Positions 8,194-39,728 of a stretch of 64,000 nucleotides of DNA are shown here, piece after piece; position 1 is the first letter of the stretch; every line of letters begins with the position of its first letter. The position numbers and the translations under genes were made by a program. The notes below the pieces were generated by a model that saw only the letters and a program-made list of their open reading frames with translations, had not been told where the DNA came from and did no database searches. The DNA lies in the IMG/VR virus record IMGVR_UViG_3300021963_000086, positions 15,270 to 79,269 of that record. One strand, 5' to 3'. Source of the DNA: a virus.

Positions 8194-8409
8194 CTACTTA
8201 GGTATTACACCGCTTAAAGTTTGCAAAAACTCTTCTTCTTGTGGCAAATATGCAACAGGTTTAACCCAACCCTTGTTGACACATTGCACAAGAATCTGCT
8301 TATACATATCCGGGCAGGCTTCGTCGATTTCTATCGCGGCTCGTCTAAACAATACAGGTCCTTCGATCCAGGTCCATTCTTTGTCGCCTGCTTTAATTGT
8401 TTTTGCCAT
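8194..8409 (-). CDS. Hypothetical protein
   Basis: Likely start MAKTIKAG. Confidence 0.55.
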   Translation of the reverse strand: MAKTIKAGDKEWTWIEGPVLFRRAAIEIDEACPDMYKQILVQCVNKGWVKPVAYLPQEEEFLQTLSGVIPK

Positions 8410-8496
8410 ATTCATCCAATCGGTGTAGATGTTAAATATAGTTGATGCTACAATAAACACTTTACACTCACTTGCATCATTTGTAAAGAGATAATT

Positions 8497-9036: not shown

Positions 9037-9056
9037 AAAGCCCCTCGGGGCTTTTT
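9035..9056. terminator. Bidirectional intrinsic terminator
   Basis: AAAAAGCCCC-TC-GGGGCTTTTT between convergent genes. Confidence 0.85.
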
Positions 9057-9273
9057 ATTTGGCTCCGTTAAATTTTCTATCGTTGCCCCAAACAAGTGAC
9101 ATGATCAATTGATCATTCTTGTCGGCAAAGTACCATGTCATGACCTTTTCGTTCAATTCTGTGGTATACTTGTCTCCGGGTAACCCGAACTGTTCTATAA
9201 CCCAAATGCAGACTTCGTTCCAATGCTCCATGTGAGGGTTATTATCCCATTCTAACGATACTGGGTTATTCAT
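9055..9273 (-). CDS. Hypothetical protein
   Basis: 72-aa ORF with 'W..VC.WVIEQFGLPG..Y' pattern. Confidence 0.6.
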   Translation of the reverse strand: MNNPVSLEWDNNPHMEHWNEVCIWVIEQFGLPGDKYTTELNEKVMTWYFADKNDQLIMSLVWGNDRKFNGAK

Positions 9274-10123: not shown

Positions 10124-10506
10124 GATTTACCTTTCATACGATTGAAGTCACCATTTAGCTGTCCTTTTAGTTTGTGACAAATAGGACATAGTTCTTCTAA
10201 ATTAGACGGGTCATTGTTATTTCTGTCTCGATCCTTATGATCGATTTCTGTCATCCCCTTGGCCCACTCTGGAATTTTAGAATAGTCAAGGGGGCATGGG
10301 AAATTTAGATGACCGTCGGTGTTACTACACTTACCGGTTTTAAAAGGAGTTACCCCTGCGGCATGGGGGTATTTTCCGTAGCTTGCGGCTTGACAATGCC
10401 CGCAATGAATGCGATAGCGTTTATTGCCTTGCTCGTCTTTACCGGAATATGTAACAGGTTTGTCACATCCGTAGTTGATACAAGTTGGACGAATTTCTGT
10501 TGTCAT
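10120..10506 (-). CDS. HNH endonuclease with Cys-rich N-terminus
   Basis: 'EIDHKDRDRNNNDPSNLEELCPICHKLK'; start re-assigned to MTTEIRP. Confidence 0.8.
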   Translation of the reverse strand: MTTEIRPTCINYGCDKPVTYSGKDEQGNKRYRIHCGHCQAASYGKYPHAAGVTPFKTGKCSNTDGHLNFPCPLDYSKIPEWAKGMTEIDHKDRDRNNNDPSNLEELCPICHKLKGQLNGDFNRMKGKS

Positions 10507-26657: not shown

Positions 26658-27014
26658 ATGGATACAAGATTACAGGAAGCGTTAGACTTCAGTAACTATC
26701 GCTTAACTCTAAGCACCCAATTGGACAACTTAAAGATCAAATTAAAAAATGATCTATTGTTCACTTATCAAAATTCTATTTTTAGTGCTAATATCAATAC
26801 CATAATGTATTGTGCCCTTTTACTAAAAGAAACAACAGTAAAAGAATTTCCTTTCGAAGATACAAACGGAGCTCCGGTACTTATTACAGATATTTCAGAT
26901 TTCGCTAGAAAGATGAATTCTATGTACATGGCCGCAATGGTAACATATAACACAGAATACGAAAAAATTGCCAAGGCAAGAAATATCAAAAAGATAGTAG
27001 ACTACAATGGATAA
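26658..27014 (+). CDS. Conserved hypothetical protein (possibly fibre-assembly/DUF4376-like)
   Basis: GAGG RBS; helical C-terminus; first gene of the GT block. Confidence 0.6.
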   Translation: MDTRLQEALDFSNYRLTLSTQLDNLKIKLKNDLLFTYQNSIFSANINTIMYCALLLKETTVKEFPFEDTNGAPVLITDISDFARKMNSMYMAAMVTYNTEYEKIAKARNIKKIVDYNG

Positions 27015-27903
27015 TCTAGACCGAGGCGTTGTTATGTTTGCTTATAACAACGAGAAGATTAATTACGATAGACTGGCAACAGTTTGCGCTCTTACGGTTA
27101 AGGCCAACTTAAAAAACAACAACGTTACGTTACTAACAGATGGTGCAACTTACAAAGCCCTAGAACAAACCTGTCCTAAAGAAATTAGAGAATACTGTTT
27201 TGACCAAATTGTAGTTGACGACATTAGACATGAAAAAAATACTAGAGTACACAGGGACTCAATTGATGTAGAGTTTGCGGCGCAATTTAGTAACGCAAAC
27301 AAACATAACGTTTATAATCTTAGTCCATACAAGCAAAGTTTATTGATAGATGTTGACTATTTGTTGGGCAGTAATCGTCTAGATTTGTTATTTGAAACTA
27401 ATGATGAGCTAGCACTATTTCGAAATGCACACGGCCTTCGCGGGAATAATCCGCATCACGAAGAACAACGTTTACACCCGCTAGGTATAGACATGTGGTG
27501 GTCAACTGTAATATATTGGCGTAAAACTGATTATAGTAAAAAATTCTTTGATATGTGGCACCATGTTAAAGAGAACTATGATTACTACAGGTTTTTATAT
27601 AAGTTTCCTGGCAATATGTTTAGAACAGATTATGCGTCTAGCATTGCCATTCACATCCTTAACGGACAAGTGGATAATAACTTAACTGTTAGCATACCTC
27701 CGGGTAGTATGAGATACATGGATCAATTAGACGACTTGGTTGAAGTTAACAAAAAGAATGATATGTTATTTTTAGCTAATATGTTATCGGACAAACGTAA
27801 AAATATCTTAACACACATTAAAGGTGAAGACATCCACATGATGAACAAAATGGCTATCTTGCGGCACTACAATGATTTCCTAAACAAATATTACTATGAC
27901 TAA
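27007..27903 (+). CDS. GT-A fold glycosyltransferase-like protein
   Basis: 'GVVMFAYNN', 'SPYKQSLLIDVDY' (DxD), 'FRTDYA'. Confidence 0.7.
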   Translation: MDNLDRGVVMFAYNNEKINYDRLATVCALTVKANLKNNNVTLLTDGATYKALEQTCPKEIREYCFDQIVVDDIRHEKNTRVHRDSIDVEFAAQFSNANKHNVYNLSPYKQSLLIDVDYLLGSNRLDLLFETNDELALFRNAHGLRGNNPHHEEQRLHPLGIDMWWSTVIYWRKTDYSKKFFDMWHHVKENYDYYRFLYKFPGNMFRTDYASSIAIHILNGQVDNNLTVSIPPGSMRYMDQLDDLVEVNKKNDMLFLANMLSDKRKNILTHIKGEDIHMMNKMAILRHYNDFLNKYYYD

Positions 27904-28684
27904 AGGAATTATTACGATTGCAACCCCTGACTATTTAGAGTCGGCAAAGCTTCTGGCATTGACTGCTAAAAAATTTAGTAACCTACCTACCACCTTAATT
28001 ACAACAGACCCTGTTGAAGCAAGTGAGTTTGACAACATAATTGTAGTACCAGGAGATGTAACAAATGCTTTTGCTGTGGGACTATTATCGTCGCCCTATG
28101 ATTACACCGCATTCATTTATGCAGACAGTTTAGTACTAAGCGATATAAAAGAATATTTTAATTTGTTAGATAAGGTTAACCTAGTAACACCGGACGCATA
28201 TGATTTTAAAGGACAGAAATTAGATAGCCAGAAATTTATTGAAAGAAAGATTCTTACTAAGAACACTATGCCAGACGTTTGGACAAACTTTTTCTTATAT
28301 CGTACTGAAGCCATTAAAGAAATATCAAACACTACCTTAGACATTATTGCTGTTTGGCAAAATGTATTAAAAATGTCTTGTACAGAATACTCAGTAGATA
28401 CCGAACTTAAGAACAAAATAAATTCTGCATTTGCTATTGCTCTTAAGGCATGTGGTCTAAATAACAATGCACACGGAGTTAAGTTTACTAACCTAAGCAA
28501 ACAAACTAACAATACCGCATTAACACACCTGGCTAACAAAGACTGGCACCAACTATTAAGTTTTTGGGCGACTGATGATAATTTAGTTAAGATAGAAAAC
28601 TATGTTCAGTCTGGCGTAGTACATTATGGTAGTACTTGGCTTAATAGCCCTAGAAGTAACAGCATTAAACAAATATGCAATTAG
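27896..28684 (+). CDS. GT-A paralog with degenerate DxD
   Basis: 'KGIITIA...SPYDYTAFIYADSL...PDVWT...VVHY' aligns by eye with the upstream GT; DxD reads YAD. Confidence 0.55.
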   Translation: MTKGIITIATPDYLESAKLLALTAKKFSNLPTTLITTDPVEASEFDNIIVVPGDVTNAFAVGLLSSPYDYTAFIYADSLVLSDIKEYFNLLDKVNLVTPDAYDFKGQKLDSQKFIERKILTKNTMPDVWTNFFLYRTEAIKEISNTTLDIIAVWQNVLKMSCTEYSVDTELKNKINSAFAIALKACGLNNNAHGVKFTNLSKQTNNTALTHLANKDWHQLLSFWATDDNLVKIENYVQSGVVHYGSTWLNSPRSNSIKQICN

Positions 28685-29673
28685 ATCCAAAACTATTTGG
28701 TACAAGAGAATTAACTCAACAGTTCTATATCTTCTATGATAAAGAAACAGGCCAGACGTTACACATTCTTAGACAACCTACCAAAGAACAATTAACTGAT
28801 GATCATATAACTGTAGCTATAGATAACGATCTAGTTACAGCAGTAATGCAGGGTAATCTAAGTATAGGACAGTTAATAGTTGCATTCGATAAAGACTCAA
28901 ATAAAAGAAGTCTATTTAAAAAGGACCAGTATCTACGTAAGGTCCATGAAGAGAATTCTACATTACTTAAGATTGATGCTGTAAAAGAAGTAGACCCAAT
29001 TACTCAGCTTGTTGTGGCGTTATACGACCAAGGTCTATTAGAAGTCAGTGTAAACAAGTCTAGCTTAGATAATTTTATTTCTATTGTAGATAACAAAAAT
29101 GAAGCATATCAAGGATACGATCATCTTAACTTTTATTTTGTAAATGCAACTGATCCTGCAAAGTTATACAGTAAATTAGTAATTGATACAAATGAATTAA
29201 TCAATCAAGGACGTATTAAGATCAATGCTCCTTGGTACAATGCAAAGATATCTAAAAAAGTTATAACACTAACCAAACGAGTATTTTCTACTTACCAAAC
29301 AGTAAAAAGAAAAGAATACATAGACACACCTAACATACACGAAGACATGTCTATGCAATATTTGTCAGACGTTACCTCTAGCAATGATTGTCATATTAGT
29401 TTCGATATTAAAGCAGATACTGTAGAAGTTAAGAGCTTTATCATTGATCCAATGAAGTATAACATATTTGATGAAATACAATTACATGCTGTAAAGAAAA
29501 GTGATCCTAGCCAATATATAAGAACTATAAAACTTACAGCAGACCAACTTAAAAATAATGGCACAGTAGTTCTAGAAAAAGTATTAGATGACTCTATGGT
29601 CTTGATACATGACAATCCAATGATTAAAGTAAACCTTAGGAAATTAAATGAAAGTACCAATAACAGAATTTGA
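28675..29673 (+). CDS. Hypothetical protein
   Basis: 332-aa ORF inside the GT block. Confidence 0.7.
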   Translation: MQLDPKLFGTRELTQQFYIFYDKETGQTLHILRQPTKEQLTDDHITVAIDNDLVTAVMQGNLSIGQLIVAFDKDSNKRSLFKKDQYLRKVHEENSTLLKIDAVKEVDPITQLVVALYDQGLLEVSVNKSSLDNFISIVDNKNEAYQGYDHLNFYFVNATDPAKLYSKLVIDTNELINQGRIKINAPWYNAKISKKVITLTKRVFSTYQTVKRKEYIDTPNIHEDMSMQYLSDVTSSNDCHISFDIKADTVEVKSFIIDPMKYNIFDEIQLHAVKKSDPSQYIRTIKLTADQLKNNGTVVLEKVLDDSMVLIHDNPMIKVNLRKLNESTNNRI

Positions 29674-30592
29674 TATTGTATTCATGAGCTTTGACGAGCC
29701 TAATGCCGATTATAACTACGCAGATTTATTGCGTAAGGCCCCATGGGCCAAACGTAGTCACGGAGTTAAAGGATCGGATGCTTGCCATAAGGCCGCGGCC
29801 AAACTTGCAGAAACTAAACGTTTTATAACCATAGATGCAGACAATATTGTTCGCGAGGATTTCTTTAATGCAGAAGTAGATCTAAGTCTGGTAGGAGATA
29901 ATGATGTGATCAGTTGGGCGGGAAAAAATGTAGTTAATGGTTTAGTCTACGGCAACGGTGGTGTTAAGTGCTGGCCGAAGCACGTAGTAGAACAAATGAA
30001 AAGTCATGAAGCCGCAGTTAACGCTAGTAGTCAAGTAGATTTTTGTTGGGACATAAATTATATTCAGATGAATAACGTTTATAGCGATGTTATGAACAAT
30101 GCTAGTCCCTTGCAAGCATGGCGAGCAGGTTTTCGCGAAGGTGTTAAGATGAGTTTAATGGGCGGAGTTACAGTTGATCCGCGTAAACTCAAACATCTAA
30201 TCCATCCTAAGAATCATCAGCGTTTACTAGTTTGGTGTAGTGTAGGCGAAGATGTATTAAACGGCCTATGGGCAATGTACGGCGCACGTCTTGGATGTTA
30301 CTTAACAAACCTAAAGCGTGATACATTTAACTATGTTGATGTACGTGACTTTGATTGGTTAGTTAATTACTTTAACACAGAAGTAATCAATAAGTTTAAA
30401 GCCACAGAAGATCTTCGAGCAGAAACTTATAGACTAGGTACAATTCTACGACAAGAACTCGAGTTGGATATTGCCGACTTAGATTCTCAAGGCAGTAAGT
30501 TTTTCAAGAGTACGTATGTTAATCCTAATAGACTAGGACCTATGATTAGAGAAAGTCAAATTTTAACAGGAGTAGGTGACAATAATGAATAA
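29648..30592 (+). CDS. Glycosyltransferase-like protein (GT-A)
   Basis: 'DIVFMSFDEPNA...HGVKG..ACH.AAA...FITIDADN...NGLVYGNGGVK...AWRAGFREGVK'. Confidence 0.65.
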   Translation: MKVPITEFDIVFMSFDEPNADYNYADLLRKAPWAKRSHGVKGSDACHKAAAKLAETKRFITIDADNIVREDFFNAEVDLSLVGDNDVISWAGKNVVNGLVYGNGGVKCWPKHVVEQMKSHEAAVNASSQVDFCWDINYIQMNNVYSDVMNNASPLQAWRAGFREGVKMSLMGGVTVDPRKLKHLIHPKNHQRLLVWCSVGEDVLNGLWAMYGARLGCYLTNLKRDTFNYVDVRDFDWLVNYFNTEVINKFKATEDLRAETYRLGTILRQELELDIADLDSQGSKFFKSTYVNPNRLGPMIRESQILTGVGDNNE

Positions 30593-31154
30593 CATACCAG
30601 GATACTTAACTAACGGTGATTGTGAAGTTTTACATAAGCTAGCATCTAGCGTTAATAAAAAAGATGCAGTCATTGTAGAAATAGGCAGTTTACATGGAAA
30701 GAGTTCTAGCATTATTTCAAAAGCATGTCCGTTAGGTAAAATATTTTGCATTGACACATGGAGAGGTTTTGACAGTAGTGTTAAGGGTGTTACTAAAGAA
30801 AAAGCCAAGTCTCGAGGATGGCCACTTCCGGGAACAAAAAACACCTATGAATTCTTTGAACAAAATACTAAAGACTGTAAAAATATCACAGCCATGAGAA
30901 CACCTAGTCCGTATGGTCTAGAAGATTTTCATTTACCATGTGATATGGTATTTTTAGATGCCGCACATACTAATCCTAGTGACATTGATAATATTAATTT
31001 TTGGTTGCCTAAAGTCAAGAAGGGCGGCATCTTTGCTGGTCATGACTATAGTGATGAATGGCCTGACGTAAAAGAAAATGTAGAATATCTTAAGTCTAAG
31101 GGATTTAATATTATATTAACCCCCGGATCTTTAGTTTGGTACTTCTATGTATGA
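30585..31154 (+). CDS. Class I SAM methyltransferase (Methyltransf_24-like)
   Basis: 'IVEIGSLHGKS', 'CIDTW', 'DMVFLDAAH', 'KKGGIFAGHDY'. Confidence 0.85.
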   Translation: MNNIPGYLTNGDCEVLHKLASSVNKKDAVIVEIGSLHGKSSSIISKACPLGKIFCIDTWRGFDSSVKGVTKEKAKSRGWPLPGTKNTYEFFEQNTKDCKNITAMRTPSPYGLEDFHLPCDMVFLDAAHTNPSDIDNINFWLPKVKKGGIFAGHDYSDEWPDVKENVEYLKSKGFNIILTPGSLVWYFYV

Positions 31155-31806
31155 CATATTTTTTTTAACGATGGGTGAACGTGATTCTATGATTAACCTT
31201 CTTAGGTTACAAGAAAAATGCTCTCCTATTGTTATTAGAGAAGTTAAAGGTTTTTGGGAAGCACACAAAGCCTGTGCAGATGTTGCACGAACTGATTTCT
31301 TTTATGTTGTAGATGCTGATGCGTGGATAACAGATGAGTTTGAGTTTACTCACAATGTTAAAGAAGAACGTGTACATGTATTTCGTAGTATAAATCCAGT
31401 TAACGGATTAAGATATGGATATGGTGCAGTAAAATTGTTTCCGGTATCTGCATTTGATCTCCCTAAACCGGAAGTAGATATTACAACAAGTTTAGGCGGC
31501 ATAATTCCTATTAATGAAATTAGTAATGAAACAAGATTTAATACAACTGAATACAATACTTGGAGATCTGCTTTTAGAGAATGCGTTAAGTTGTCTGGTA
31601 AGGTAATTGACAATCAAATTGATATAGCTACAAATTATAGGTTAACAATATGGTGCAACATATTCAAACATGTACCATATTATGAACAATGTCTAGCTGG
31701 CGCAAAAAAAGGTAGAGCTTACGGTGAAGCTAATAAAAACAACATTGATGCTTTAAAATTAATAAATGACGAGCAATGGTTACTTGGTCAATATGAAAAA
31801 GTTTAA
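31147..31806 (+). CDS. Glycosyltransferase-like protein, paralog of 29648-30592
   Basis: 'YDIFF...VKG..EAHKACA...FYVVDADA...NGLRYGYGAVK...TWRSAFRECVK'. Confidence 0.65.
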   Translation: MYDIFFLTMGERDSMINLLRLQEKCSPIVIREVKGFWEAHKACADVARTDFFYVVDADAWITDEFEFTHNVKEERVHVFRSINPVNGLRYGYGAVKLFPVSAFDLPKPEVDITTSLGGIIPINEISNETRFNTTEYNTWRSAFRECVKLSGKVIDNQIDIATNYRLTIWCNIFKHVPYYEQCLAGAKKGRAYGEANKNNIDALKLINDEQWLLGQYEKV

Positions 31807-32560
31807 CGCATATCATCTCAGTTGGCTAGCTGAAGAACTACATAAAGCTAAGTTTATTGATGTAAGTAATAGACAGTTCTATAATTGGTATAACAGTATA
31901 AACGATGGCAATCATGATAAACCTCAACCAGAAGTTTATCTATTTGCGGCCTTTGACGAGCTAATGACTATTTGTCCAAATAACCTATTCGGAAGAGTAA
32001 TTAGTTTAGTAGAAGATTATCCTACAGTAAATTGGGTAGATGCTTTTAGTAGGTTTCAAATACGTAGTAAAATAACAGCGGCCAATACGTTGTTGGCAAC
32101 AGAAGCAGAGTTTGGCGACATTTGGATAATGGGGGGTTGGGTAGGAGTGTTACCTATGCTACTAACCGAAAAGTTATATCCTAATAGGTACAATACTATC
32201 GTAAGCTACGACCTAGACAATATCGCTAATCTAGCAGGCGAAAAACTAGTAAATTCTACTCGATACAGCGCAGAATTCAAGGATATCTATGCCTTAGACT
32301 ATACAAACTTTTCAGGTACTGTCGTGAATACTATCTGCGAACATTTAGACAGGTTTGATATTTGGCAAAACCAAATCCCTTCAAACACACTAATGTTACT
32401 CCAAAGCAACAACATGTTTGGAGTAGTTGATGATCATGTTAATTGTGTGAGCAATATGGACGACTTTGTTAGTCGTTTGGATTGTAAAGAAATTATACAT
32501 AAAGAAACAAGCACCTATAACGATCAATACGAACGCTATACGGTGCTTGCTATTAAGTAA
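31793..32560 (+). CDS. Putative SAM-dependent methyltransferase
   Basis: 'IMGGWVG' Gly motif, 'SYDLD', 'VNTICEH', 'LLQSNN'. Confidence 0.55.
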   Translation: MKKFNAYHLSWLAEELHKAKFIDVSNRQFYNWYNSINDGNHDKPQPEVYLFAAFDELMTICPNNLFGRVISLVEDYPTVNWVDAFSRFQIRSKITAANTLLATEAEFGDIWIMGGWVGVLPMLLTEKLYPNRYNTIVSYDLDNIANLAGEKLVNSTRYSAEFKDIYALDYTNFSGTVVNTICEHLDRFDIWQNQIPSNTLMLLQSNNMFGVVDDHVNCVSNMDDFVSRLDCKEIIHKETSTYNDQYERYTVLAIK

Positions 32561-33371
32561 TATCAGAAGTAATGATAATGTCTTGCTCTGGATATAATGC
32601 AACTAGTTCAGCACGTAATGCCTGATCTTCTTCTTGCACATTTTCAAAACCGTTGAACTTAACTCTAGGTGCAATGCCTAGATAGTGTTGATAGAAATCT
32701 GCCTTACGGTCTTTACTTGACTGCCCGTAGTTCATGGTAGGCCAAAACTCGTCATTGATCCACGCCTCAAAAACTGATTTGTCTAATTGGAAAGGTAGTG
32801 CATTACCGTCAATACCTCTGAGTCTGCGATAAATTTCTACGCTAAAGTGCATTGGTTTTTCAGTCAGTTCTACAATGTCACCTGCTTGACCTTTAAACTT
32901 TAGTTCCGGCTCACCAATACAAAGCATAGGATAACCAAACGGCAACATAGCCTCCATCATCTTCATGTATACAAGATATTGTGGACTTGTACAACGTGTC
33001 ATTTCGGCTATTTCTAAACTATGGTTTTTTTGTTCTACCCAAAGACCCACAGGATCAAAACTAATTACTCTAGGATAATATCCATGTGTCTCGCACCACT
33101 CAACTGCATGATGTGTATCGTGCTGGTTCTTACCTGCATAATCAAAGATTATCGGAGTAAAAGGTCTACCCATATTATGCAAAATTGTAGCAACTGCTTC
33201 GCTATCTATTCCGCCACTAAGTGCAAGAACAATATTAAAAGGAGTAACATTGCCTAGGTATGTTTCCATAGCCGTTATCCAATTGGGACTGTTGTTTGTG
33301 CGCTCTAAATTATACTCTAGAGTAGCACCAAAATCACTTACTTTAAGATGATCTAATTCAAAGTTAATCAT
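32553..33371 (-). CDS. PP-loop (adenine nucleotide alpha-hydrolase) enzyme
   Basis: 'LALSGGIDSE'; C-terminal 'PRVKFNGFE' parallels 'ARPKYHGYE' of 36439-37377. Confidence 0.75.
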   Translation of the reverse strand: MINFELDHLKVSDFGATLEYNLERTNNSPNWITAMETYLGNVTPFNIVLALSGGIDSEAVATILHNMGRPFTPIIFDYAGKNQHDTHHAVEWCETHGYYPRVISFDPVGLWVEQKNHSLEIAEMTRCTSPQYLVYMKMMEAMLPFGYPMLCIGEPELKFKGQAGDIVELTEKPMHFSVEIYRRLRGIDGNALPFQLDKSVFEAWINDEFWPTMNYGQSSKDRKADFYQHYLGIAPRVKFNGFENVQEEDQALRAELVALYPEQDIIITSDIT

Positions 33372-34437
33372 TTATTAAATTCTCCAAGTTCACTGTTTTG
33401 TGGAATTTAAAATCGTCTGTAATAAAATTACTAACATATTTAAACCTAACCATATCGGGTAAACTGGGGACTTTAGTTTTACTAGTGTAGTATGCGCGAT
33501 TACGATCAAACTCATAAATCAGCTCTTTTGCTACCCACTTGTAACTAGCCCAGTCTTTTGCAACTTTTTTATCAGGGTTGCTTACAGACCATTGTTGCCA
33601 AAGCCCAGTATTCCAGAAATGTATTAAACTACTATTTACCCATTCATGAGTCAGCTCAACGCCCGGACAAGCATGACTTAGGATACGGAATTCTACAGCT
33701 TGCCATTTCATAGTAAAGTTAATCCACCACATGTAATCGTGTAAACTCTTAATCCCGTTAGGGTTTAGCTTCATAACGGGCTCCATACGGGACATCATCA
33801 TTTCTGCTTCTTCCTTGCTACCTAATTTTTGTGTAAAAAACTCTAGTGCAGGATCCTTATAAGGTACGTGGACTAGATCTTTATTACCTAAGCGATCCAT
33901 GGCCATACCTAAAGTTAAACTGCCAAACACGTTGTCAGCCATTTCCCCCGTAAGTACAATATGATCTTCTGTTAAGTACTTTTCAAAACTGTTACTACTA
34001 GCCATGCGGAAGCGGGTAATATATTTTTTGTAGAACTCGGGGTTCTCTGCAATACTAGCTTCGTTTAAGATTACTAAGGTACGATCAAATAAGTCTTGAT
34101 TGCCTAACTGCATCAAAAGTACCATCAGTAAAGTACTGTCAATGCCTCCGCTATACATGACTACAAATTGTTTGTTAGGATTGTCTTTAACATAAGCAAT
34201 TATCTCTAGCATACGCTGATTGCAAATTTCTTCAAACGTTTTATCAGTCCATAAGCTAGCAGGCATAGGAAATAAATTCTTAATCTTAACAGGCCATTTG
34301 ATAGTACCAGTCCTGTCGTACAAGCTAATGCTAGGATTGAACATTCGTTTGAAAGGCTCAGTTGACTTTAACTGAGGATATTGTTCTAGATTGTCCTTGC
34401 TATAAAGGTCAATGGGATTATAATACAGCAGGCTCAT
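33364..34437 (-). CDS. Asparagine-synthetase C-terminal-like PP-loop enzyme, no glutaminase domain
   Basis: 'VMYSGGIDST' and 'LTGEMADNVFG' (cf. AsnB SGEGADELFG); 'K..AKELIY'. Confidence 0.75.
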   Translation of the reverse strand: MSLLYYNPIDLYSKDNLEQYPQLKSTEPFKRMFNPSISLYDRTGTIKWPVKIKNLFPMPASLWTDKTFEEICNQRMLEIIAYVKDNPNKQFVVMYSGGIDSTLLMVLLMQLGNQDLFDRTLVILNEASIAENPEFYKKYITRFRMASSNSFEKYLTEDHIVLTGEMADNVFGSLTLGMAMDRLGNKDLVHVPYKDPALEFFTQKLGSKEEAEMMMSRMEPVMKLNPNGIKSLHDYMWWINFTMKWQAVEFRILSHACPGVELTHEWVNSSLIHFWNTGLWQQWSVSNPDKKVAKDWASYKWVAKELIYEFDRNRAYYTSKTKVPSLPDMVRFKYVSNFITDDFKFHKTVNLENLIND

Positions 34438-35054
34438 AGTAATACGTTTAACCAGCTTTCTCTGTGCATACGATCTTTAATCTCTTTGATCTCTTCTAGA
34501 GAGGTACATTTACGCAAGTCACGTAAGTATTGCATACGAAGACGTTCGGTGTTAGCATAGGTATCTCTAGTTAATTCAGCTTTGAATAGAATTTGATCGG
34601 CGGCCTGAGTTAATGTACAAGATGCAAATTCTGCGTAGTCTTTTACCATTTGGCAGTCTTCAGTTGATCCATTACGAACTAATCGTGCTTGCCTTTCTTT
34701 TTCTAAGTAAACAAGATCTTGTTGATTAACAACTGGACTAATACGTACACGAGCATAGTTAATAATACTAAGAATATCATAATACGCCCATAGTTTGTTT
34801 TGCATTAATAAACTTCTATCTTTAACTGCATCGTTGTTGGCCTTAACAAGATTGTTTTGCATTAGGCTAGGCTTATAAGACCAATTCCACGGATGTGCTT
34901 TTAAGTCTGCAACATCTGCATCACTTAATTCGTGTACTCCGAGTACCAGCTGGCAATCGCATTCGCTCTCTACTAGCCAAAGTAAATGTTTACGTTCAGG
35001 TGTTACTGATAGTACTCTATACTCTGTGTCTACTATTAAAGGTTGATATTTCAT
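34434..35054 (-). CDS. Hypothetical protein; C-terminus resembles tail-fibre assembly chaperones
   Basis: 'Q..VY.EK..QA...YA....TL..AA..I...A...ER.R......TSLEEI' helical pattern. Confidence 0.45.
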   Translation of the reverse strand: MKYQPLIVDTEYRVLSVTPERKHLLWLVESECDCQLVLGVHELSDADVADLKAHPWNWSYKPSLMQNNLVKANNDAVKDRSLLMQNKLWAYYDILSIINYARVRISPVVNQQDLVYLEKERQARLVRNGSTEDCQMVKDYAEFASCTLTQAADQILFKAELTRDTYANTERLRMQYLRDLRKCTSLEEIKEIKDRMHRESWLNVLL

Positions 35055-35830
35055 TTTAGAAAAGGTTTAAAAATTTTACAAGGATCAAATTCCCACCACT
35101 TGCCACTTACACCTGTTCCAAAGTCAAACGAACGAGGTGCTTGATGATGATTGTTATGCCATCCTTGCCCCCACGCAAAGTAACCTAGTAAAGGAACATT
35201 TTGACTCCAATCTTTAGTTTCAAAGTTTCTATAACCTGCAGGTGTAGCCCAGTGCCCATACAAGTCTACTAGGTTTTCTTGATGCTGTGCCCAGGTCATG
35301 GACATAATAAAACCGTACAAGGCCAACTTCCAACTAAGCAATGCAACGACTACTAATGTACCCCAAATAATTTTATCATAATGTTTGTGACAGAACACTT
35401 GAAATTGATCTCGCAGTAGGTCAACAGAATATTTCATATTAACATCAGATGGTTTAAGTTTAGTCATCCATCCCATATAGGCATTCCACTTACCGTGATA
35501 GGGACTATGAAAGTCTTTTTCTGTATCAGCATGTGGATGATGATAACCTCTGTGCATTGCACACCAAAAGATAGCACTACCTTGGCAACCAAACATACCT
35601 AGTACAGTAAGTATCTTTTGTTTCCATAACGGAACTTCTAATGCTTTGTGACTTAGAACTCTATGATAGCCTATTGCTACACCTAAGCCACTGAACAAAG
35701 TCCAACAGATTAGTGTAGCCCATAACCATACATAGTCTCCTAAGCTGATCATTGTTATTAGTGCAACAACAAACAACACATGAACAGGTATGGTAATACG
35801 TTGTACGTGTTGCGGAATATTTTTAATCAT
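35051..35830 (-). CDS. Membrane fatty-acid desaturase (Delta-9/OLE1/DesC-like)
   Basis: Three His boxes (HRVLSH, HRGYHH, WHNNHH), 'D.EKDFHSP', TM segments, 'WWEFDP'. Confidence 0.9.
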   Translation of the reverse strand: MIKNIPQHVQRITIPVHVLFVVALITMISLGDYVWLWATLICWTLFSGLGVAIGYHRVLSHKALEVPLWKQKILTVLGMFGCQGSAIFWCAMHRGYHHPHADTEKDFHSPYHGKWNAYMGWMTKLKPSDVNMKYSVDLLRDQFQVFCHKHYDKIIWGTLVVVALLSWKLALYGFIMSMTWAQHQENLVDLYGHWATPAGYRNFETKDWSQNVPLLGYFAWGQGWHNNHHQAPRSFDFGTGVSGKWWEFDPCKIFKPFLK

Positions 35831-36446
35831 TCTTATATCCAGGTTTATATAATTGTTTTAAAACACTAACATCTGGTCTGTGTTCTTGACGCAAAATATG
35901 ATGACGAATCACCATATCAGTAGGCCATAATGTGCTTTTCATCATTACAACCCAAAATTCATCGTATGCTGGTCTTTTTAACGCAGGCACTACATGGTCA
36001 AAGTTAATGTCATACCGCTTGCGCTCAGGGACTAGCTTACCCCAAATTCTTTCATGTGCTTTTATGTACTGAGTAGGGATACTGCTATAATACTCAAATA
36101 GGTATTTACTCTCAGCAAAGTTAATAGCATGACTCATTAAGTCAGCAATACCCTTCATTGGCACACTCGACGAAACACCTGCATCGCTTACAACTTTTTG
36201 TAAGTACCATACAGGACGCATAGTACTTAACTGTATGTTCAGATAACTAATTAAGTTTCCGTTATCAAAATATCCCCAGCAAAGATATGTTGGATTGCTT
36301 TCTTCCAAATACAAATGACTAAAGTTGCTTTCGCTCCAAAAATGATCAGCGCCGGCCTGACTCGTAGTTACACCTGCGTGTTTATCATGACTGATAGTGA
36401 TACGCTTTAGGTCTTCTTTATATTCTTTGCCTAGTAATTTAATCAT
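35823..36446 (-). CDS. Divergent GNAT-fold-like protein
   Basis: 'CWGYFDNGNLISY...WYLQKVVS...GIADLMSHAINFAE' GNAT-like topology. Confidence 0.45.
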   Translation of the reverse strand: MIKLLGKEYKEDLKRITISHDKHAGVTTSQAGADHFWSESNFSHLYLEESNPTYLCWGYFDNGNLISYLNIQLSTMRPVWYLQKVVSDAGVSSSVPMKGIADLMSHAINFAESKYLFEYYSSIPTQYIKAHERIWGKLVPERKRYDINFDHVVPALKRPAYDEFWVVMMKSTLWPTDMVIRHHILRQEHRPDVSVLKQLYKPGYKND

Positions 36447-37377
36447 GTCTAAGTCTTTTAATCAATTCTGAATATTCTGTTTTTAGTATAACATCATGTT
36501 GTACGTCATTACAGTCACCTAAGTCTAGATAAACTTTGTTGTTTAAGTGCATTACGTTTTCATAACCGTGGTATTTTGGTCGTGCTTCAAAATTAAAATA
36601 CTTTGCATAAACATTTGGCTTAGTACTTAATAATCCGTATTTGTAGTCTATGCGATCGTTTACTAAATCTTGTACTAACGGGTCAATTAAGTAACTTAAC
36701 ATCAGCTCTGGAGTATAACTAAAGAACTCGCTAATAACTGTTTTGTTTGTTTTTAGCGAATATTTAAAATAACTCATATCGTTATCTTCTCTAACATAGT
36801 GATACCATTTATAATTGTAGGTAGAACTATTAGTTGCATAAAACTCTTTTATGTCTACTTCTCGACTCATGAAAATCTCACCGCCTAAAATGTAAATGTC
36901 ATCTTTAGGCAATGTGTCAAGTGCTTTCATGATGATCATCATTGCTAGTTGTTTGACTTGATACTCTCGATGGTAATAAAAATGTAGACCTTTGGCTACG
37001 AAGTCGGCCGGATCTATATAAAGAATTTGATATGGTATTTTATTAGCTTGACAGTATCGGTGTGCGTATTGTGTATCATGTTGGTTGACTCCCATGTCAA
37101 CAATAATACAATCAAAAGGAATACCTGCACGTTGAAAAGCCATGACAACGATTTCGCTGTCAATGCCGCCGCTGTATAGTATACGTATTCTTTGTCCTGG
37201 TCTAGTCTTACTGAAAATTAGTCTAGCCGCACGTTCACACTCGAAATCCCATGATCCTATCGGACCTGCACACCTACCCACTTTAAAGGAAAATATGTCG
37301 TTAGAAGATTTCCTATATGTAAAAGGTTGACCGTTATATAAAAATTGATAGTGGTTTTTGTAAGTGAGTTCTGTCAT
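36439..37377 (-). CDS. PP-loop enzyme, paralog of 32553-33371
   Basis: 'ILYSGGIDSE', 'NQHDTQYA..YC' (cf. NQHDTHHA..WC); start re-assigned to MTELTYK downstream of TAAATA. Confidence 0.75.
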   Translation of the reverse strand: MTELTYKNHYQFLYNGQPFTYRKSSNDIFSFKVGRCAGPIGSWDFECERAARLIFSKTRPGQRIRILYSGGIDSEIVVMAFQRAGIPFDCIIVDMGVNQHDTQYAHRYCQANKIPYQILYIDPADFVAKGLHFYYHREYQVKQLAMMIIMKALDTLPKDDIYILGGEIFMSREVDIKEFYATNSSTYNYKWYHYVREDNDMSYFKYSLKTNKTVISEFFSYTPELMLSYLIDPLVQDLVNDRIDYKYGLLSTKPNVYAKYFNFEARPKYHGYENVMHLNNKVYLDLGDCNDVQHDVILKTEYSELIKRLRHD

Positions 37378-37385
37378 TATGTAGG

Positions 37386-37391
37386 TATTTA
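37386..37391 (-). promoter_or_regulatory. Putative late promoter (TAAATA)
   Basis: TAAATA 8 bp upstream of the ATG at 37377; geometry similar to 11213. Confidence 0.45.
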
Positions 37392-37847
37392 TTTCAGCTT
37401 CATACTGGCATAACAATTAGGACCAAACTCCATGTCCTTGTCAAACCAATCTGATGTTTGTATAAATCCTACACTTTGATAAGCTGGCAAGGCAGATTGC
37501 CTTGGTACTGTCCATATATGGCTAGCATTCCAATCCTTTGCTTGAAAGATAGAATTTTCTAGCACGATTCTTGCATAACCTTTATTACGGTATAATGGAT
37601 CTACCCATAGGCCTCGACTTCTAGCAGAACCATCTGCACACATAACAACGCTATTAATTGCAACTATATCATTGTTATTACGTATAGAAAAGAAAGCAGG
37701 TACGAACTGCTGGTTTTGCATATCGTACCCGCCAAGATAACGCATTGCACTAGTAGGTTCAATCTTTGACTTGCGTCCTGGCCAAAGTTTGTCTTGCCAT
37801 ACACGGAATGTTTCTTCCCATGTAGCAGGTCCTACTAGTAAGTTCAT
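37389..37847 (-). CDS. GNAT acetyltransferase
   Basis: 'RSRGLWVDPLYRNKGYA', 'A..AYQSVGF'. Confidence 0.85.
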   Translation of the reverse strand: MNLLVGPATWEETFRVWQDKLWPGRKSKIEPTSAMRYLGGYDMQNQQFVPAFFSIRNNNDIVAINSVVMCADGSARSRGLWVDPLYRNKGYARIVLENSIFQAKDWNASHIWTVPRQSALPAYQSVGFIQTSDWFDKDMEFGPNCYASMKLK

Positions 37848-38725
37848 AGATCCAATTTAGACTTAAACTCTGTTAGTTCACGTTTGCTTAGGCCAAATAC
37901 CTTTGCTACGTTTTCTTCACTACGTTGGTCATTTACTAAATCATTCCATTTGTTTGCACTAATTAGTCGCTTAACAAGATCAATTTCCATACGACTTAAA
38001 CGCATACAGTTTTGTTGATAGTCTTCGAATGCCTGACATACTTCCGGGAATAAAGGCTTTGCCAATTCATACATAGCATTAGCGTACTCTTGGATTTCCC
38101 ATTGGGCATGGCTATCGGCACGTAGTCGAATCATGTGGAGGAAGTTTTTGAGGTTTGCTTTCCAGTAGAGTTCTGTATAGCCGCCCACTGGGAGTACGCT
38201 TCTGGACAGTTCGCGAGTAAGGCCAGTCCCATCCTTTCCCAAAAGCTCGGTGTATTCTTTATAAGCATTGAAAAAGCTTCGTTGGAATGCGTGTTGCACT
38301 CCTCTACGTTCTTCGAATCCCCAGTCATTATCCTCTCTCCCTTGTTTATTAGTAGAACTTTGCTGTTGAATTTGTTCTAGTTCGGGAATATAAAATTCAT
38401 CTGTCATAACAGAGTAACGAGCAGAGTATTCGTTCATACTAGCAGTACGATGACGGACTAACTGACGCATAACAAAGATAGGTAACTTAATGTGAAACTT
38501 TACTTCACACATTTCAATAGGAGTAGTATGTTCGTGGCGTACTAGGTAACGTATTAGATTGCGGTCATCTTGTACTTGTTTAGTACCTGCACCGTAACTA
38601 ACACGAGCGGCCTGCACAACCGCCGCATCACTACCCATATGATCAATGAGTCCAACGAACCCGTGATCTAATACAGGAACATAGTTCTTATCTTGTTCAA
38701 AATTAATTTCACTTCTTTTTGTCAT
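37844..38725 (-). CDS. thyX: Flavin-dependent thymidylate synthase
   Basis: 'AARVSY', 'RQLVRHRTASMNEYSARY', 'LR...HAQWEI'. Confidence 0.95.
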   Translation of the reverse strand: MTKRSEINFEQDKNYVPVLDHGFVGLIDHMGSDAAVVQAARVSYGAGTKQVQDDRNLIRYLVRHEHTTPIEMCEVKFHIKLPIFVMRQLVRHRTASMNEYSARYSVMTDEFYIPELEQIQQQSSTNKQGREDNDWGFEERRGVQHAFQRSFFNAYKEYTELLGKDGTGLTRELSRSVLPVGGYTELYWKANLKNFLHMIRLRADSHAQWEIQEYANAMYELAKPLFPEVCQAFEDYQQNCMRLSRMEIDLVKRLISANKWNDLVNDQRSEENVAKVFGLSKRELTEFKSKLDL

Positions 38726-39044: not shown

Positions 39045-39131
39045 GATTTTATCTTTATGTTATATCGAAGATCTTTTCGTACAAGTACTTAGTACAATTG
39101 GTAACCATAACTTCATATTATCTGATGTGAC

Positions 39132-39162
39132 AAAAAATGACAGCAACATCGTCACTGTCATT
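39132..39162 (-). terminator. Intrinsic terminator
   Basis: AATGACAGTGAC-GAT-GTTGCTGTCATT hairpin followed by a T-run on the minus strand. Confidence 0.7.
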
Positions 39163-39188
39163 ATATTTTAACTTCTTATAAAATTTTG

Positions 39189-39728
39189 TCAAGCATCAGC
39201 ATCTACTAAAGTGTCCTTACGTGGACGACCAACTGGACGTTTGGTAGGATCTAATTCTTCTGCTTGTTTGCGAAGATCTCTAGCTTGCAAATCGTATATA
39301 TCGGCTTGACGACGTAAGTCTGCCGCTAATGCTTTGTTGTCCATTGTGTCACCGCTACTAACAGGCTCATCGCCATTCATTGCGGCTAGTTGATTGTTTA
39401 GATCTTCTAATGAAATTTCCATTCCAGGACCTGGACGCATTATGATTTTCTTTGTAGGGAACTTACGTAGTAATCCCTTGTCATGTAAACCTTGTAACAT
39501 AGGCTCGCCAGTTGACAAAAACTGTCTGCTAGCATAATCAAAGAAATCAATAGTTTCTTGTGCAGTTACCGTTTCAACAGCATTCATCAAATCGGTATGA
39601 TAGCGATCAGGAAGGCTGTCACTTTCTACTACAAGACAACTAGTGGGTTCGTTTGGAACCTGTCTAAAAATAACTAAAACTCTGTGGCCGGTATCTTTGT
39701 GAACACCGACGTGTCTGAGGAATGCCAT
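39189..39728 (-). CDS. Conserved protein with C-terminal AT-hook-like motif
   Basis: Start MAFLRHVG after a GGAG RBS; 'KRPVGRPRK'. Confidence 0.7.
   Translation of the reverse strand: MAFLRHVGVHKDTGHRVLVIFRQVPNEPTSCLVVESDSLPDRYHTDLMNAVETVTAQETIDFFDYASRQFLSTGEPMLQGLHDKGLLRKFPTKKIIMRPGPGMEISLEDLNNQLAAMNGDEPVSSGDTMDNKALAADLRRQADIYDLQARDLRKQAEELDPTKRPVGRPRKDTLVDADA

What the first reader, a model, noticed from the sequence alone, without database searches (positions are those of the whole stretch)
32553..37847. Candidate undescribed system: triple PP-loop + GNATs + desaturase + fibre-chaperone-like cluster
Seen: seven overlapping or adjacent minus-strand genes: GNAT, PP-loop A, GNAT-like, desaturase, helical protein, AsnB-C-like PP-loop (TGEMADNVFG, no glutaminase) and PP-loop B. 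A and B share SGGIDSE, NQHDT..A..C and R.K..G.E. A late-type TAAATA precedes the six downstream genes, and the cluster converges on the GT block. Known: PP-loop enzymes adenylate carboxyl/carbonyl groups, and glutaminase-less AsnB-like enzymes (lasso cyclases, beta-lactam synthetase) form amides with substrate amines. None of the three shows the QueC Cys motif. Inference: a late pathway installing amide or isopeptide-linked, possibly unsaturated acyl groups on a protein or glycan, with the chaperone-like protein targeting tail fibres. A small acyl-amide metabolite is the alternative.
Basis: partly seen in the sequence, partly recalled or inferred. Interest (0 to 1): 0.8.

Follow-up and report, generated by a model that had tools for sequence, protein, structure and literature searches.

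The report
Phage amide-ligase, acyltransferase, desaturase gene cluster
An uncultured giant T4-like phage carries a real, conserved seven-gene cluster of three ATP-driven amide-forming enzymes, a dedicated partner protein, two acyltransferase-like proteins and a membrane fatty-acid desaturase; no one has described the combination, its product is unknown, and nothing ties it to tail fibres or to late expression.

Summary
The seven minus-strand genes are real. They are tightly packed, under strong purifying selection, and fully syntenic in two related contigs.

All three PP-loop proteins are glutaminase-less relatives of the synthetase domain of asparagine synthetase B. They are too divergent to reach any curated family cutoff, and none is a canonical QueC, TilS, NadE or MnmA.

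Comparison with 77 viral and 52 bacterial loci splits the cluster into two sub-modules:
- **Ligase plus partner.** The AsnB-like ligase lies directly downstream of a roughly 200-250 aa helical partner in 65 of 77 viral loci and 9 of 10 candidate-phyla-radiation (CPR)-type bacterial loci. The partner family has about 1,700 clusters, and the match always ends at the protein's C-terminus.
- **Triad.** PP-loop A, a GNAT-like protein and a delta-9-type desaturase are consecutive in 37 of 48 loci.

Related phages add SDR, Asp/Asn beta-hydroxylase, TauD, radical SAM and cupin genes. GNAT-152 and PP-loop B occur only in close relatives.

My best reading, at about 30%, is that the cluster builds and tailors an amide-linked fatty-acyl product at the membrane. 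A protein- or partner-directed modification is nearly as likely.

The "late promoter" and "fibre chaperone" claims are not supported. The same scan noted this stretch and a sister operon in this genome before.

The parts
37389..37847 (-). GNAT N-acyltransferase, 152 aa. Lineage-specific accessory gene.
   Evidence: It scores 35.3 bits against Pfam Acetyltransf_1 (cutoff 20.7). tblastn found it only in L007 and L008, at 70-83% identity. dN/dS is 0.19-0.25.
36439..37377 (-). PP-loop ligase A, 312 aa from ATG 37377 (the ORF runs up to TTG 37416). Glutaminase-less, AsnB-class fold.
   Evidence: SGGIDSE, N.HD and RPK..G.E are invariant or nearly invariant in 28 homologues. The AF2 model has pLDDT 91.9. 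The best Foldseek PDB matches are beta-lactam synthetase and human ASNS, at E 1e-5 to 1e-4. Pfam Asn_synthase scores only 17.6 bits against a cutoff of 21. An HMM finds the family in 50 of 77 viral loci and 3 of 10 CPR loci.
35823..36446 (-). orf207, a GNAT-like protein of an unannotated family. Sits between PP-loop A and the desaturase.
   Evidence: It has no Pfam, PHROG or NCBIfam hit. A profile search of the PDB gives only weak acetyltransferase matches, E 0.07. ESM Atlas features point to Acetyltransf_1 clusters, score 0.96. It is fused to a C-terminal GNAT domain in L066 and L074. It is present in 49 of 77 viral loci. A homologue lies beside a desaturase in a Bdellovibrio metagenome-assembled genome (MAG), hhalign probability 98%.
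35051..35830 (-). Membrane delta-9-type (stearoyl-CoA / DesC-like) fatty-acid desaturase, 259 aa.
   Evidence: It scores 40.2 bits against Pfam FA_desaturase (cutoff 29.7). It is present in 53 of 77 viral loci.
34434..35054 (-). Helical partner protein, 206 aa. Translationally coupled (ATGA) to the ligase downstream.
   Evidence: It lies immediately upstream of the AsnB-like gene in 65 of 77 viral loci and 9 of 10 CPR loci. Its N-terminal half is variable and its C-terminal helical half is conserved, with E170 invariant. The family holds 1,709 clusters at 50% identity. The listed hits are 174-275 aa, and the match ends at the C-terminus. No family or PDB match was found.
33364..34437 (-). AsnB-class amide ligase without a glutaminase domain, 357 aa.
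   Evidence: The AF2 model has pLDDT 93.2. In the VIA-wide search the top five are TsnB9 (Z 12.5), beta-lactam synthetase (11.3), human ASNS (10.9), carbapenam synthetase (9.9) and E. coli AsnB (9.2); the next match is 6.6. SGGIDS, G164, D168, G172 and the N-terminal D41 and R42 of the DRTGT motif are invariant, and E165 is near-invariant. 214 homologue clusters were found. 229 viral stretches and 52 bacterial loci encode a relative.
32553..33371 (-). PP-loop ligase B, 272 aa. A shortened paralogue of ligase A and a lineage-specific accessory gene.
   Evidence: It aligns with the A family over its whole length and keeps SGGIDSE, NQHD and RVK..G.E. A full-length match occurs only in L007 and L008. 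QueC and NadE hits are below cutoff.
31766..32560 (+). orf264, an unannotated conserved neighbour that converges on the cluster.
   Evidence: Homologues are present in 51-52 of 77 viral loci, next to the triad or the pair. It has no Pfam or PDB match.
37844..38725 (-). ThyX thymidylate synthase. Co-directional, with a 4-nt overlap with GNAT-152. Context only; probably not part of the pathway.
   Evidence: Pfam Thy1 matches at 1.2e-56. It is adjacent to the cluster in 45-46 of 77 loci, but its position and orientation relative to the pair and the triad change between lineages.

Best explanation
The cluster is a composite tailoring module built around ATP-dependent amide ligases of the asparagine-synthetase-B class that have lost the glutaminase domain. 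Each ligase would adenylate a carboxylate, releasing PPi through the SGGIDS loop. The Glu and Asp of GE..D..FG would act as in AsnB. An amine would then attack, either free ammonia or a substrate amine.

The 357-aa ligase works as a fixed pair with the 206-aa helical protein encoded just upstream. PP-loop A works with the GNAT-like orf207 and the membrane delta-9-type desaturase. GNAT-152 and PP-loop B are extra, lineage-specific tailoring steps.

My committed reading is that the product is an amide-linked fatty-acyl compound. This would be a lipo-amino-acid or aminolipid-type molecule, or an acylated envelope component. It would be made and desaturated at the host inner membrane during infection, so the cluster would remodel the host envelope rather than decorate tail fibres.

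Shown: the gene families, the folds, the motifs, the co-occurrence and the selection. Inferred: the substrate, the order of steps, the product and the timing.
For: - **Fold and motifs of the ligases:**
- **Membrane enzyme:** only the desaturase is membrane-embedded, and it has intact His boxes. At least one substrate therefore carries an acyl chain at the membrane.
- **Triad:** PP-loop A, orf207 and the desaturase are consecutive and co-oriented in 37 of 48 loci that hold both A and the desaturase. These loci span several of 21 AsnB-like lineages defined at 60% identity, and their surrounding contexts are rearranged.
- **Acyltransferase link:** orf207 is fused to a GNAT domain in L066 and L074.
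- **Lipid-type tailoring in relatives:** related phage clusters add Asp/Arg beta-hydroxylase-family genes and short-chain dehydrogenases. From my own knowledge, this is the family of the lipid hydroxylases LpxO and OlsC.
- **Bacterial parallel:** a Bdellovibrio MAG operon combines an LpxO-family hydroxylase, three desaturase-family genes, an orf207 homologue, an AsnB-like ligase and a class I/II aminotransferase.
Against: - No substrate or product has been shown.
- The ligase-partner pair, sometimes with a PP-loop A relative, also occurs in CPR bacteria and in phage loci with no desaturase or orf207. The core chemistry therefore need not involve lipid.
- The orf207 family is rare in bacteria: 1 of 301 Bdellovibrionota genomes. 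The Bdellovibrio operon may be a transferred copy rather than independent evidence.
- Desaturases are known stand-alone auxiliary genes of aquatic myophages (PMC7029224), so adjacency could be synteny within a variable island.
- Relatives and the sister operon carry halogenase, radical SAM, TauD, PhyH and PPPDE-peptidase genes. That set looks more like peptide tailoring.
Confidence: 0.3

Rival explanations
1. Protein-directed chemistry. The AsnB-like ligase acts on a protein carboxylate, either on its own partner or on a phage or host protein recruited by the partner. It would amidate the carboxylate, cross-link it or extend it. The other enzymes would tailor the attached group. This resembles PP-loop enzymes that act on proteins (Dph6 on EF2, Cap9/QatC on protein N-termini) or lasso-type cyclases.
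For: - The non-enzymatic partner is translationally coupled and almost always directly upstream of the ligase.
- The partner family is stand-alone, and its match always runs to the C-terminus.
- E170 is invariant and R173 is nearly invariant.
- The pair exists without any lipid enzyme in CPR bacteria and in several phage lineages.
- The tailoring set in relatives and in the sister operon is typical of peptide natural products: halogenase, PhyH, TauD, B12-radical SAM and PPPDE peptidase.
- In Pseudomonas phage Cygsa01, two family members follow the baseplate genes and three large unannotated genes that may encode fibres.
- PP-loop enzyme plus protein-substrate pairs are known (PMC13376578).
Against: - The cluster contains no precursor-peptide ORF and no protease.
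- No fused forms were found.
- A membrane desaturase is hard to fit to a cytoplasmic protein substrate.
- The pair is not consistently near fibre genes; in L042 it lies beside a DNA polymerase gene.
- The fixed C-terminus may simply reflect the overlap with the ligase start codon.
Confidence: 0.25
2. Glycan tailoring. Together with the convergent glycosyltransferase-like and methyltransferase block, the ligases would amidate uronic or nonulosonic acids and the GNATs would N-acylate amino sugars. The target would be host LPS, capsule or a virion glycan.
For: - In most related phages the triad is co-oriented and contiguous with orf264 and the orf314/orf219 genes.
- orf314 and orf219 have a conserved DAD motif.
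- A Methyltransf_24 gene lies in the block.
- SDR/epimerase-like and cupin genes occur in relatives.
- Cupin_2 is the commonest neighbour of the ligase in non-CPR bacteria, in 16 neighbour proteins.
- UDP-glucose dehydrogenase and epimerase genes lie near the Bdellovibrio operon.
- Glycosyltransferase-rich host-recognition islands are described in pelagi- and cyanomyophages (PMC7029224).
Against: - The putative glycosyltransferases have no Pfam or PDB support.
- The ligase is far from the N-acetyl sugar amidotransferase fold (8wex, Z 3.5) and hits no NCBIfam sugar-amidotransferase model.
- CPR bacteria lack LPS (my own knowledge).
- The desaturase has no role in sugar chemistry.
Confidence: 0.15
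3. Not one pathway. The pair, the triad, ThyX and the accessory genes would be independent auxiliary genes that sit together only because they share a hypervariable island of aquatic T4-like genomes.
For: - The pair and the triad occur separately.
- ThyX sits between them in the commonest lineage, and their relative orientation flips.
- GNAT-152 and PP-loop B are confined to close relatives.
- All the viral loci share backbone synteny: cobS-like, DUF2201, orf186 and orf111.
Against: - The order within the triad and within the pair is kept across lineages below 60% identity and across rearrangements.
- There is an orf207-GNAT fusion.
- PP-loop A relatives lie near the pair in CPR genomes that share no phage backbone.
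Confidence: 0.15
4. Nucleic-acid modification. The PP-loop enzymes would modify tRNA or DNA bases, as TilS, MnmA or QueC do, in step with the adjacent ThyX.
For: ThyX is adjacent in 45-46 of 77 loci. Weak motif-level hits to TilS, MnmA and QueC exist. GenBank annotators named the Cygsa01 homologues MnmA.
Against: All such hits cover only the PP-loop and lie far below cutoff. The fold is of the AsnB class. No Cys motifs are present. The desaturase is membrane-bound.
Confidence: 0.05

Closest known systems
Class B asparagine synthetase synthetase domain and its glutamine-independent offshoots (E. coli AsnB 1ct9, human ASNS, beta-lactam synthetase 1jgt, carbapenam synthetase 1q15, TsnB9 7ylz)
   Same: Both share the PP-loop SGGxDS, the GE..D..FG motif with the same spacing, and the overall fold (Z 9.2-12.5, well separated from other PP-loop enzymes at 6.6 or below). 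The expected chemistry is the same: carboxylate adenylation followed by amide formation.
   Different: The phage proteins have no N-terminal Ntn glutaminase domain at all, whereas beta-lactam synthetase, carbapenam synthetase and lasso cyclases keep a degenerate one. They carry a new N-terminal DRTGT element. Sequence identity is 9-14%. They fall below the Pfam Asn_synthase cutoff. They are always paired with a dedicated helical protein.
PP-loop enzyme plus protein-partner pairs of defence systems (QatC-QatB; Cap9 with its CD-NTase)
   Same: A PP-loop ATPase forms a unit with a partner protein that lacks motifs and may be its substrate (PMC13376578).
   Different: Those enzymes are QueC-like and use a 7-deazaguanine carboxylate. 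The proteins here give only sub-threshold PADLOC QueC hits on PP-loop A and B. Their fold is of the AsnB class, and Cap9 aligns only at Z 3.9.
Host-recognition / hypervariable islands of pelagi- and cyanomyophages with glycosyltransferases, Asp/Asn beta-hydroxylase, stearoyl-CoA desaturase, cobS/cobT (PMC7029224)
   Same: The genome setting matches: T4-like aquatic myophages, with the cluster at the edge of the tail-fibre and glycosyltransferase-like region. Some related contigs are pelagimyophage-like, with VrlC 63% identical to that of Pelagibacter phage Mosig.
   Different: That work does not describe the AsnB-like ligases, the partner or the triad. No cultured pelagi- or cyanomyophage in the phage collection matched the ligase.
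Lasso-peptide and other RiPP clusters with an AsnB-like cyclase and variable tailoring enzymes
   Same: An AsnB-family enzyme forms a conserved core that is surrounded by a changing set of tailoring genes: GNAT, hydroxylases, halogenase and radical SAM.
   Different: No precursor peptide, RRE or transglutaminase-type protease lies in this cluster. The partner is 200-250 aa, and a membrane desaturase is present.

Membership tests
Asparagine synthetase B class, synthetase domain (Pfam PF00733) | PP-loop SGGxDS ATP pyrophosphatase motif | tested here: met
   SGGIDS is present in all three proteins, and S, G, G and D are invariant in both family alignments.
Asparagine synthetase B class, synthetase domain (Pfam PF00733) | GE..D..FG motif (the AsnB GEGSDEVFG with its catalytic Glu and Mg-binding Asp) | tested here: met
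   In the 357-aa ligase, G164, D168 and G172 are invariant and E165 is near-invariant. The mapping onto AsnB residues is from my own knowledge and was not made by structural superposition. PP-loop A and B lack an obvious copy of the motif.
Asparagine synthetase B class, synthetase domain (Pfam PF00733) | Fold closest to AsnB, beta-lactam synthetase and carbapenam synthetase rather than to other PP-loop enzymes | tested here: met
   For the 357-aa ligase, the VIA-wide top five are all of this class at Z 12.5-9.2, and the next match is 6.6. For PP-loop A, the Foldseek top eleven are beta-lactam synthetase or ASNS. PP-loop B was not modelled.
Asparagine synthetase B class, synthetase domain (Pfam PF00733) | Score above the curated Pfam / NCBIfam cutoff | tested here: not met
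   The 357-aa ligase has no Pfam hit at E 0.01. PP-loop A scores 17.6 bits against a cutoff of 21. The NCBIfam asn_synth_AEB model gives 13.7 bits against 267. Some 40%-identical homologues do carry a precomputed PF00733 hit.
Glutamine-dependent asparagine synthetase (AsnB proper) | N-terminal Ntn glutaminase domain with Cys at position 2 | tested here: not met
   The proteins are 272-357 aa and begin MSLLYY, MTELTY and MINFEL. The model aligns to TsnB9 only from residue 148 onward.
QueC / TilS / NadE / MnmA / LarE (canonical PP-loop enzymes) | Full-length match above the family cutoff, with family-specific Cys or substrate motifs | tested here: not met
   All hits cover only about 25-95 residues around the PP-loop, at 12-22 bits against cutoffs of 64-606. 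No CxxC motif is present.
Lasso peptide biosynthetic system | Precursor peptide, RRE and transglutaminase-like leader protease next to the cyclase | tested here: not met
   There are no unassigned gaps or small ORFs between the seven genes, and no protease or RRE family was hit. The sister operon does have a PPPDE/DUF3750 gene.
Membrane delta-9 acyl-CoA / acyl-lipid desaturase (PF00487) | Three His boxes, membrane segments and a Pfam score above cutoff | tested here: met
   It scores 40.2 bits against 29.7. Regiospecificity was not tested.
GNAT acyltransferases | Pfam Acetyltransf_1 above cutoff | tested here: met
   GNAT-152 scores 35.3 bits against 20.7. For orf207 the test is inconclusive: there is no Pfam hit, the PDB profile search gives E 0.07, and the Atlas feature score is 0.96.
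Phage tail-fibre chaperone / assembly proteins | Sequence or profile similarity to a known chaperone family, and linkage to fibre genes | tested here: inconclusive
   The partner has no Pfam, PHROG or PDB match. The pair also occurs beside a DNA polymerase gene and in CPR bacteria.
N-acetyl sugar amidotransferase (WbuX / PseA / LfnA) | Match to the NCBIfam model or to the solved fold (8wex) | tested here: inconclusive
   There is no NCBIfam hit. 8wex aligns at Z 3.5 only.

The most novel reading that the evidence does not exclude
The helical partner is a scaffold or carrier protein. Its positionally fixed C-terminal carboxylate would be adenylated by the glutaminase-less AsnB-like ligase and joined to an amine. 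That amine could be an amino acid that is then tailored and released, in the manner of the peptide-scaffolded pearlin natural products. Or it could be a lysine of a target protein, which would make this a ubiquitin-like tagging system run by a PP-loop enzyme. Either system would be shared by large aquatic phages and CPR bacteria.
Probability: 0.12. Interest if true: 0.9.

Novelty: new variant of a known kind. Interest (0 to 1): 0.6.

Why it matters
If the pair and the triad make one product, large aquatic phages would carry a natural-product-like pathway. The lineages concerned include relatives of SAR11 phages and of jumbo phages. The pathway would have a conserved amide-forming core and a lineage-specific set of tailoring enzymes. 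That would be a new class of phage-made molecule or envelope modification.

The partner family (about 1,700 clusters at 50% identity) and the stand-alone AsnB-like family (214 homologue clusters in the search) are both uncharacterised, and CPR bacteria share them. One biochemical result would therefore annotate many genes.

Pseudomonas phage Cygsa01 is cultured and carries two of the ligases, mis-annotated as MnmA. It offers a practical way to test them.

Tried and rejected
- **Nucleotide search:** blastn of the 5.3-kb cluster against 50,697 phage records found nothing.
- **Protein search in phages:** the AsnB-like ligase matched only Pseudomonas phage Cygsa01, and PP-loop A matched nothing.
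- **Partner:** Pfam, PHROGs and NCBIfam gave nothing, and PADLOC gave no match to any defence family. A PDB profile search gave only noise. The ESM Atlas gave one lead, a Campylobacterota cluster with PF27318 HI1402_helical at score 0.93, which I could not test. A search for longer, fused forms found none, which is weak evidence.
- **orf264 and orf314/orf219:** no Pfam or PDB match, so the 'glycosyltransferase' label is unverified.
- **Promoters:** the T4 late motif is absent. The best sigma-70-like site (39192-39165) lies in the remnant of a small ORF that is intact in L007 and L008, so its conservation does not show promoter function. Timing stays unknown.
- **Bdellovibrio MAG (L098):** the 415-aa and 323-aa neighbours are not partner or PP-loop A homologues. 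The orf207 family was found in only 1 of 301 Bdellovibrionota genomes.
- **Cygsa01:** neither the 278-aa nor the 90-aa neighbour is a partner homologue.
- **Literature:** searches for the gene combination found no description of it.
- **Tool limits:** An alignment for orf264 failed on a coordinate slip and was not repeated.

Full report
**Setting.** The window is bases 15270-79269 of a 79,269-bp IMG/VR contig that CheckV rates 22% complete. It is a T4-like myophage. It has a gp5-like baseplate hub with lysozyme, an ATP-dependent DNA ligase, a cobS-like MoxR ATPase, a DUF2201/VWA protein and ThyX. Its rIIA homologue is only about 31% identical to that of the nearest cultured phages, which are 253-kb Vibrio phages. 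Plus-strand genes 11593-32560 encode very large structural proteins (1,075 and 3,009 aa). These are followed by unannotated genes and one Methyltransf_24 gene. Everything from 32553 to the window end runs on the minus strand.

**Observation.** The seven genes exist as described and are packed with 4- or 8-nt overlaps. Two related contigs, L007 and L008, keep all seven in the same order at 65-95% amino-acid identity. Non-synonymous divergence is far below synonymous divergence for every gene, with dN/dS of 0.04-0.25 wherever it could be estimated. These are real, selected genes. GNAT-152 and the desaturase pass their Pfam cutoffs. The desaturase has the three His boxes of the delta-9 (stearoyl-CoA / DesC) type and is the only membrane protein of the seven. 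PP-loop A most likely starts at ATG 37377, where its homologues start.

**The three PP-loop proteins.** Pfam, NCBIfam, PHROGs and PADLOC hit them only across the SGGxDS motif and far below cutoff. Single-sequence PDB searches give E-values of 0.01 or worse.
- **357-aa protein.** A 20-sequence alignment shows a well-conserved family with invariant SGGIDS, G164, D168, G172 and D41-R42 of an N-terminal DRTGT element, and near-invariant E165. Its AlphaFold model is confident, at pLDDT 93. An exhaustive structural search puts five AsnB-class enzymes on top: TsnB9, beta-lactam synthetase, human ASNS, carbapenam synthetase and E. coli AsnB, at Z 12.5-9.2. All other PP-loop enzymes score 6.6 or below (Foldseek agrees).
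- **PP-loop A.** The model (pLDDT 92) also has beta-lactam synthetase and ASNS as its best matches.
- **PP-loop B.** It is a shorter paralogue of A and shares A's invariant motifs.
- **Relationship between the two families.** They are only distantly related to each other: hhalign gives 93% probability over 71 columns around the PP-loop.
- **What is missing.** None of the three has a glutaminase domain or a Cys motif.

The same contig holds a sister operon upstream of the window, with two more such ligases and a second partner.

**Conservation elsewhere.** The 357-aa family has 214 homologue clusters. Relatives are encoded in 229 viral stretches and 52 bacterial loci. I called ORFs in 77 viral and 52 bacterial loci and labelled them with family HMMs.
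- **Partner.** It lies immediately upstream of the ligase in 65 of 77 viral loci, and several of the remainder are cut at that edge. The same holds in 9 of 10 loci from Kaiserbacteria, Moranbacteria, Paceibacteria, Saccharibacteria and related genomes.
- **Other bacteria.** The partner is absent there, and a Cupin_2 protein is the commonest neighbour (16 neighbour proteins).
- **Triad.** PP-loop A, orf207 and the desaturase are present in 50, 49 and 53 of the 77 viral loci. They are consecutive and co-oriented in 37 of the 48 loci that have both A and the desaturase.
- **Lineages.** The ligases fall into 21 lineages at 60% identity. The triad recurs in at least seven of them, with changed surroundings. 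About ten lineages have the pair alone.
- **CPR bacteria.** A PP-loop A relative lies within a few kb of the pair in three or four loci.
- **Taxonomic spread.** Neighbouring marker genes place some loci with pelagimyophages (VrlC 63% identical to Pelagibacter phage Mosig), some with Atu_ph07-like jumbo phages (tail sheath), and one pair-only locus beside a T4-type DNA polymerase gene.

The cluster is therefore a composite of two conserved sub-modules plus accessories. GNAT-152 and PP-loop B were seen only in L007 and L008.

**Variable tailoring genes.** Related clusters carry, inside or next to the triad and the pair:
- a short-chain dehydrogenase;
- an Asp/Arg beta-hydroxylase-family protein;
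- a TauD dioxygenase;
- a B12-binding radical SAM enzyme, lying between the desaturase and the partner;
- a second radical SAM enzyme;
- a cupin.

orf207 is fused to a GNAT domain in two lineages, and language-model features place it with GNATs. The sister operon has two GNATs, PhyH, a PPPDE/DUF3750 protein and a tryptophan-type halogenase. A conserved core with a changing tailoring set is the pattern of a biosynthetic cluster.

**The partner.** Its N-terminal half varies. Its C-terminal half is helical, with an invariant Glu and several near-invariant positions. A profile search of 1.84 billion representatives finds 1,709 clusters. The listed hits are 174-275 aa. In nearly every hit the match runs to within a few residues of the C-terminus, while N-terminal extensions vary. 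No fusions were found. It has no detectable relation to fibre chaperones or to any annotated family.

**Mechanism.** The chemistry follows from the fold and motifs: carboxylate adenylation, then attack by ammonia or a substrate amine. The substrate does not follow from the data.
- **For an acyl/lipid reading.** The membrane desaturase is tightly linked to the GNAT-like gene and PP-loop A. Relatives add LpxO/OlsC-family hydroxylases and SDRs. One Bdellovibrio MAG operon joins an LpxO-family hydroxylase, three desaturase-family genes, an orf207 homologue (hhalign 98%), an AsnB-like ligase and a class I/II aminotransferase.
- **Against it.** The orf207 family is in only 1 of 301 Bdellovibrionota genomes, so that operon may be a transferred copy. 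The pair lives without any lipid gene in CPR bacteria. The halogenase, radical SAM and peptidase genes look like peptide tailoring.

I put an amide-linked fatty-acyl product made at the membrane at about 0.3. A protein- or partner-directed modification is at 0.25. Glycan tailoring with the neighbouring block is at 0.15. Independent genes sharing a variable island is at 0.15. Nucleic-acid modification is at 0.05.

The chemistry and the 'not canonical QueC/TilS/NadE' point hold.
- **'Late' does not hold.** TATAAATA is absent from the whole window, against 8.2 +/- 2.7 expected. TAAATA occurs 35 times. The cited site lies only 15 nt upstream of the ATG start of PP-loop A. The only strong sigma-70-like site upstream lies in the remnant of a small ORF that is intact in the relatives. 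In this window the cluster shares a strand with rIIA, cobS-like and ThyX genes. In the commonest related lineage the ThyX-triad segment is inverted and co-oriented with the orf264/orf314 block. Timing is open.
- **'Fibre-chaperone-like' has no support.** See the partner section above.

**Comparison with the literature.** Aquatic T4-like phages are known to have a hypervariable host-recognition island with glycosyltransferases, Asp/Asn beta-hydroxylase, cobS/cobT and, in freshwater forms, a stearoyl-CoA desaturase (PMC7029224). That work does not mention the ligases or the partner. PP-loop enzymes paired with a possible protein substrate are known from QatBC (PMC13376578), but those are QueC-like. 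I found no paper describing this gene combination. An earlier follow-up in this scan called the sister operon's ligase and partner virus-only. For the subfamily in this window, that does not hold.

**Limits.** No co-folding was possible.

Noticed in passing
whole window 1-64000: The T4 late-promoter consensus TATAAATA does not occur once on either strand, although dinucleotide-preserving shuffles give 8.2 +/- 2.7. Either this phage uses a different late motif or the word is avoided.
   Followed up: partly
window 39045-39190 (minus strand), versus L007:5133-5389 and L008:5134-5406: The relatives carry an ~80-aa ORF between orf186 and orf111. The window keeps only its first few codons, which include a perfect TTGACA-16-TAAAAT match followed by a 12-bp hairpin with a T run. 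This looks like a deletion remnant that may double as a promoter or terminator.
   Followed up: partly
L140 (Pseudomonas phage Cygsa01, PP179332.1) 5688-7837: A cultured 166-kb Pseudomonas syringae phage has two AsnB-like ligase genes annotated as 'tRNA-specific 2-thiouridylase MnmA'. A 90-aa ORF separates them. They lie directly after the baseplate wedge genes and three large hypothetical genes. The annotation is almost certainly wrong.
   Followed up: partly
L098 (Bdellovibrio sp. MAG, JABWCO010000023.1) 335-10499: This is a co-directional bacterial operon. It holds an Asp/Arg-hydroxylase-family gene, three fatty-acid-desaturase-family genes, an orf207 homologue, an AsnB-like ligase and a class I/II aminotransferase, followed by UDP-glucose dehydrogenase and an epimerase. 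It may be a lipid or glycolipid pathway, or an island derived from a phage.
   Followed up: partly
L091:5593-7245, L092:5544-7265, L096:5466-7322 (CPR genomes): Directly upstream of the partner-ligase pair, three CPR genomes encode fusions of a phosphoribosyltransferase domain to a PQQ-like beta-propeller. Two other CPR loci have a sodium:solute symporter in that position.
   Followed up: no
L033-type loci, e.g. L034:9045-9710: In the commonest related lineage, the ThyX-like gene beside the ligase is only about 221 aa and 28-31% identical to the window's 293-aa ThyX. Other lineages keep a 57-67% identical copy. It may be a divergent paralogue with another role.
   Followed up: no
L012-L017, e.g. 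L016:5819-7366: A 515-aa B12-binding radical SAM gene is inserted between the desaturase and the partner gene in one lineage. A second radical SAM gene (470 aa) lies among the orf219/orf314 genes.
   Followed up: no
window 27007-31806 and alignment A6: The orf314, orf219, orf298 and orf262 paralogues share FLS.DEPNAD and VDAD motifs, which suggest a GT-A fold. They have no Pfam or PDB sequence match, so their 'glycosyltransferase' label is still unverified.
   Followed up: partly
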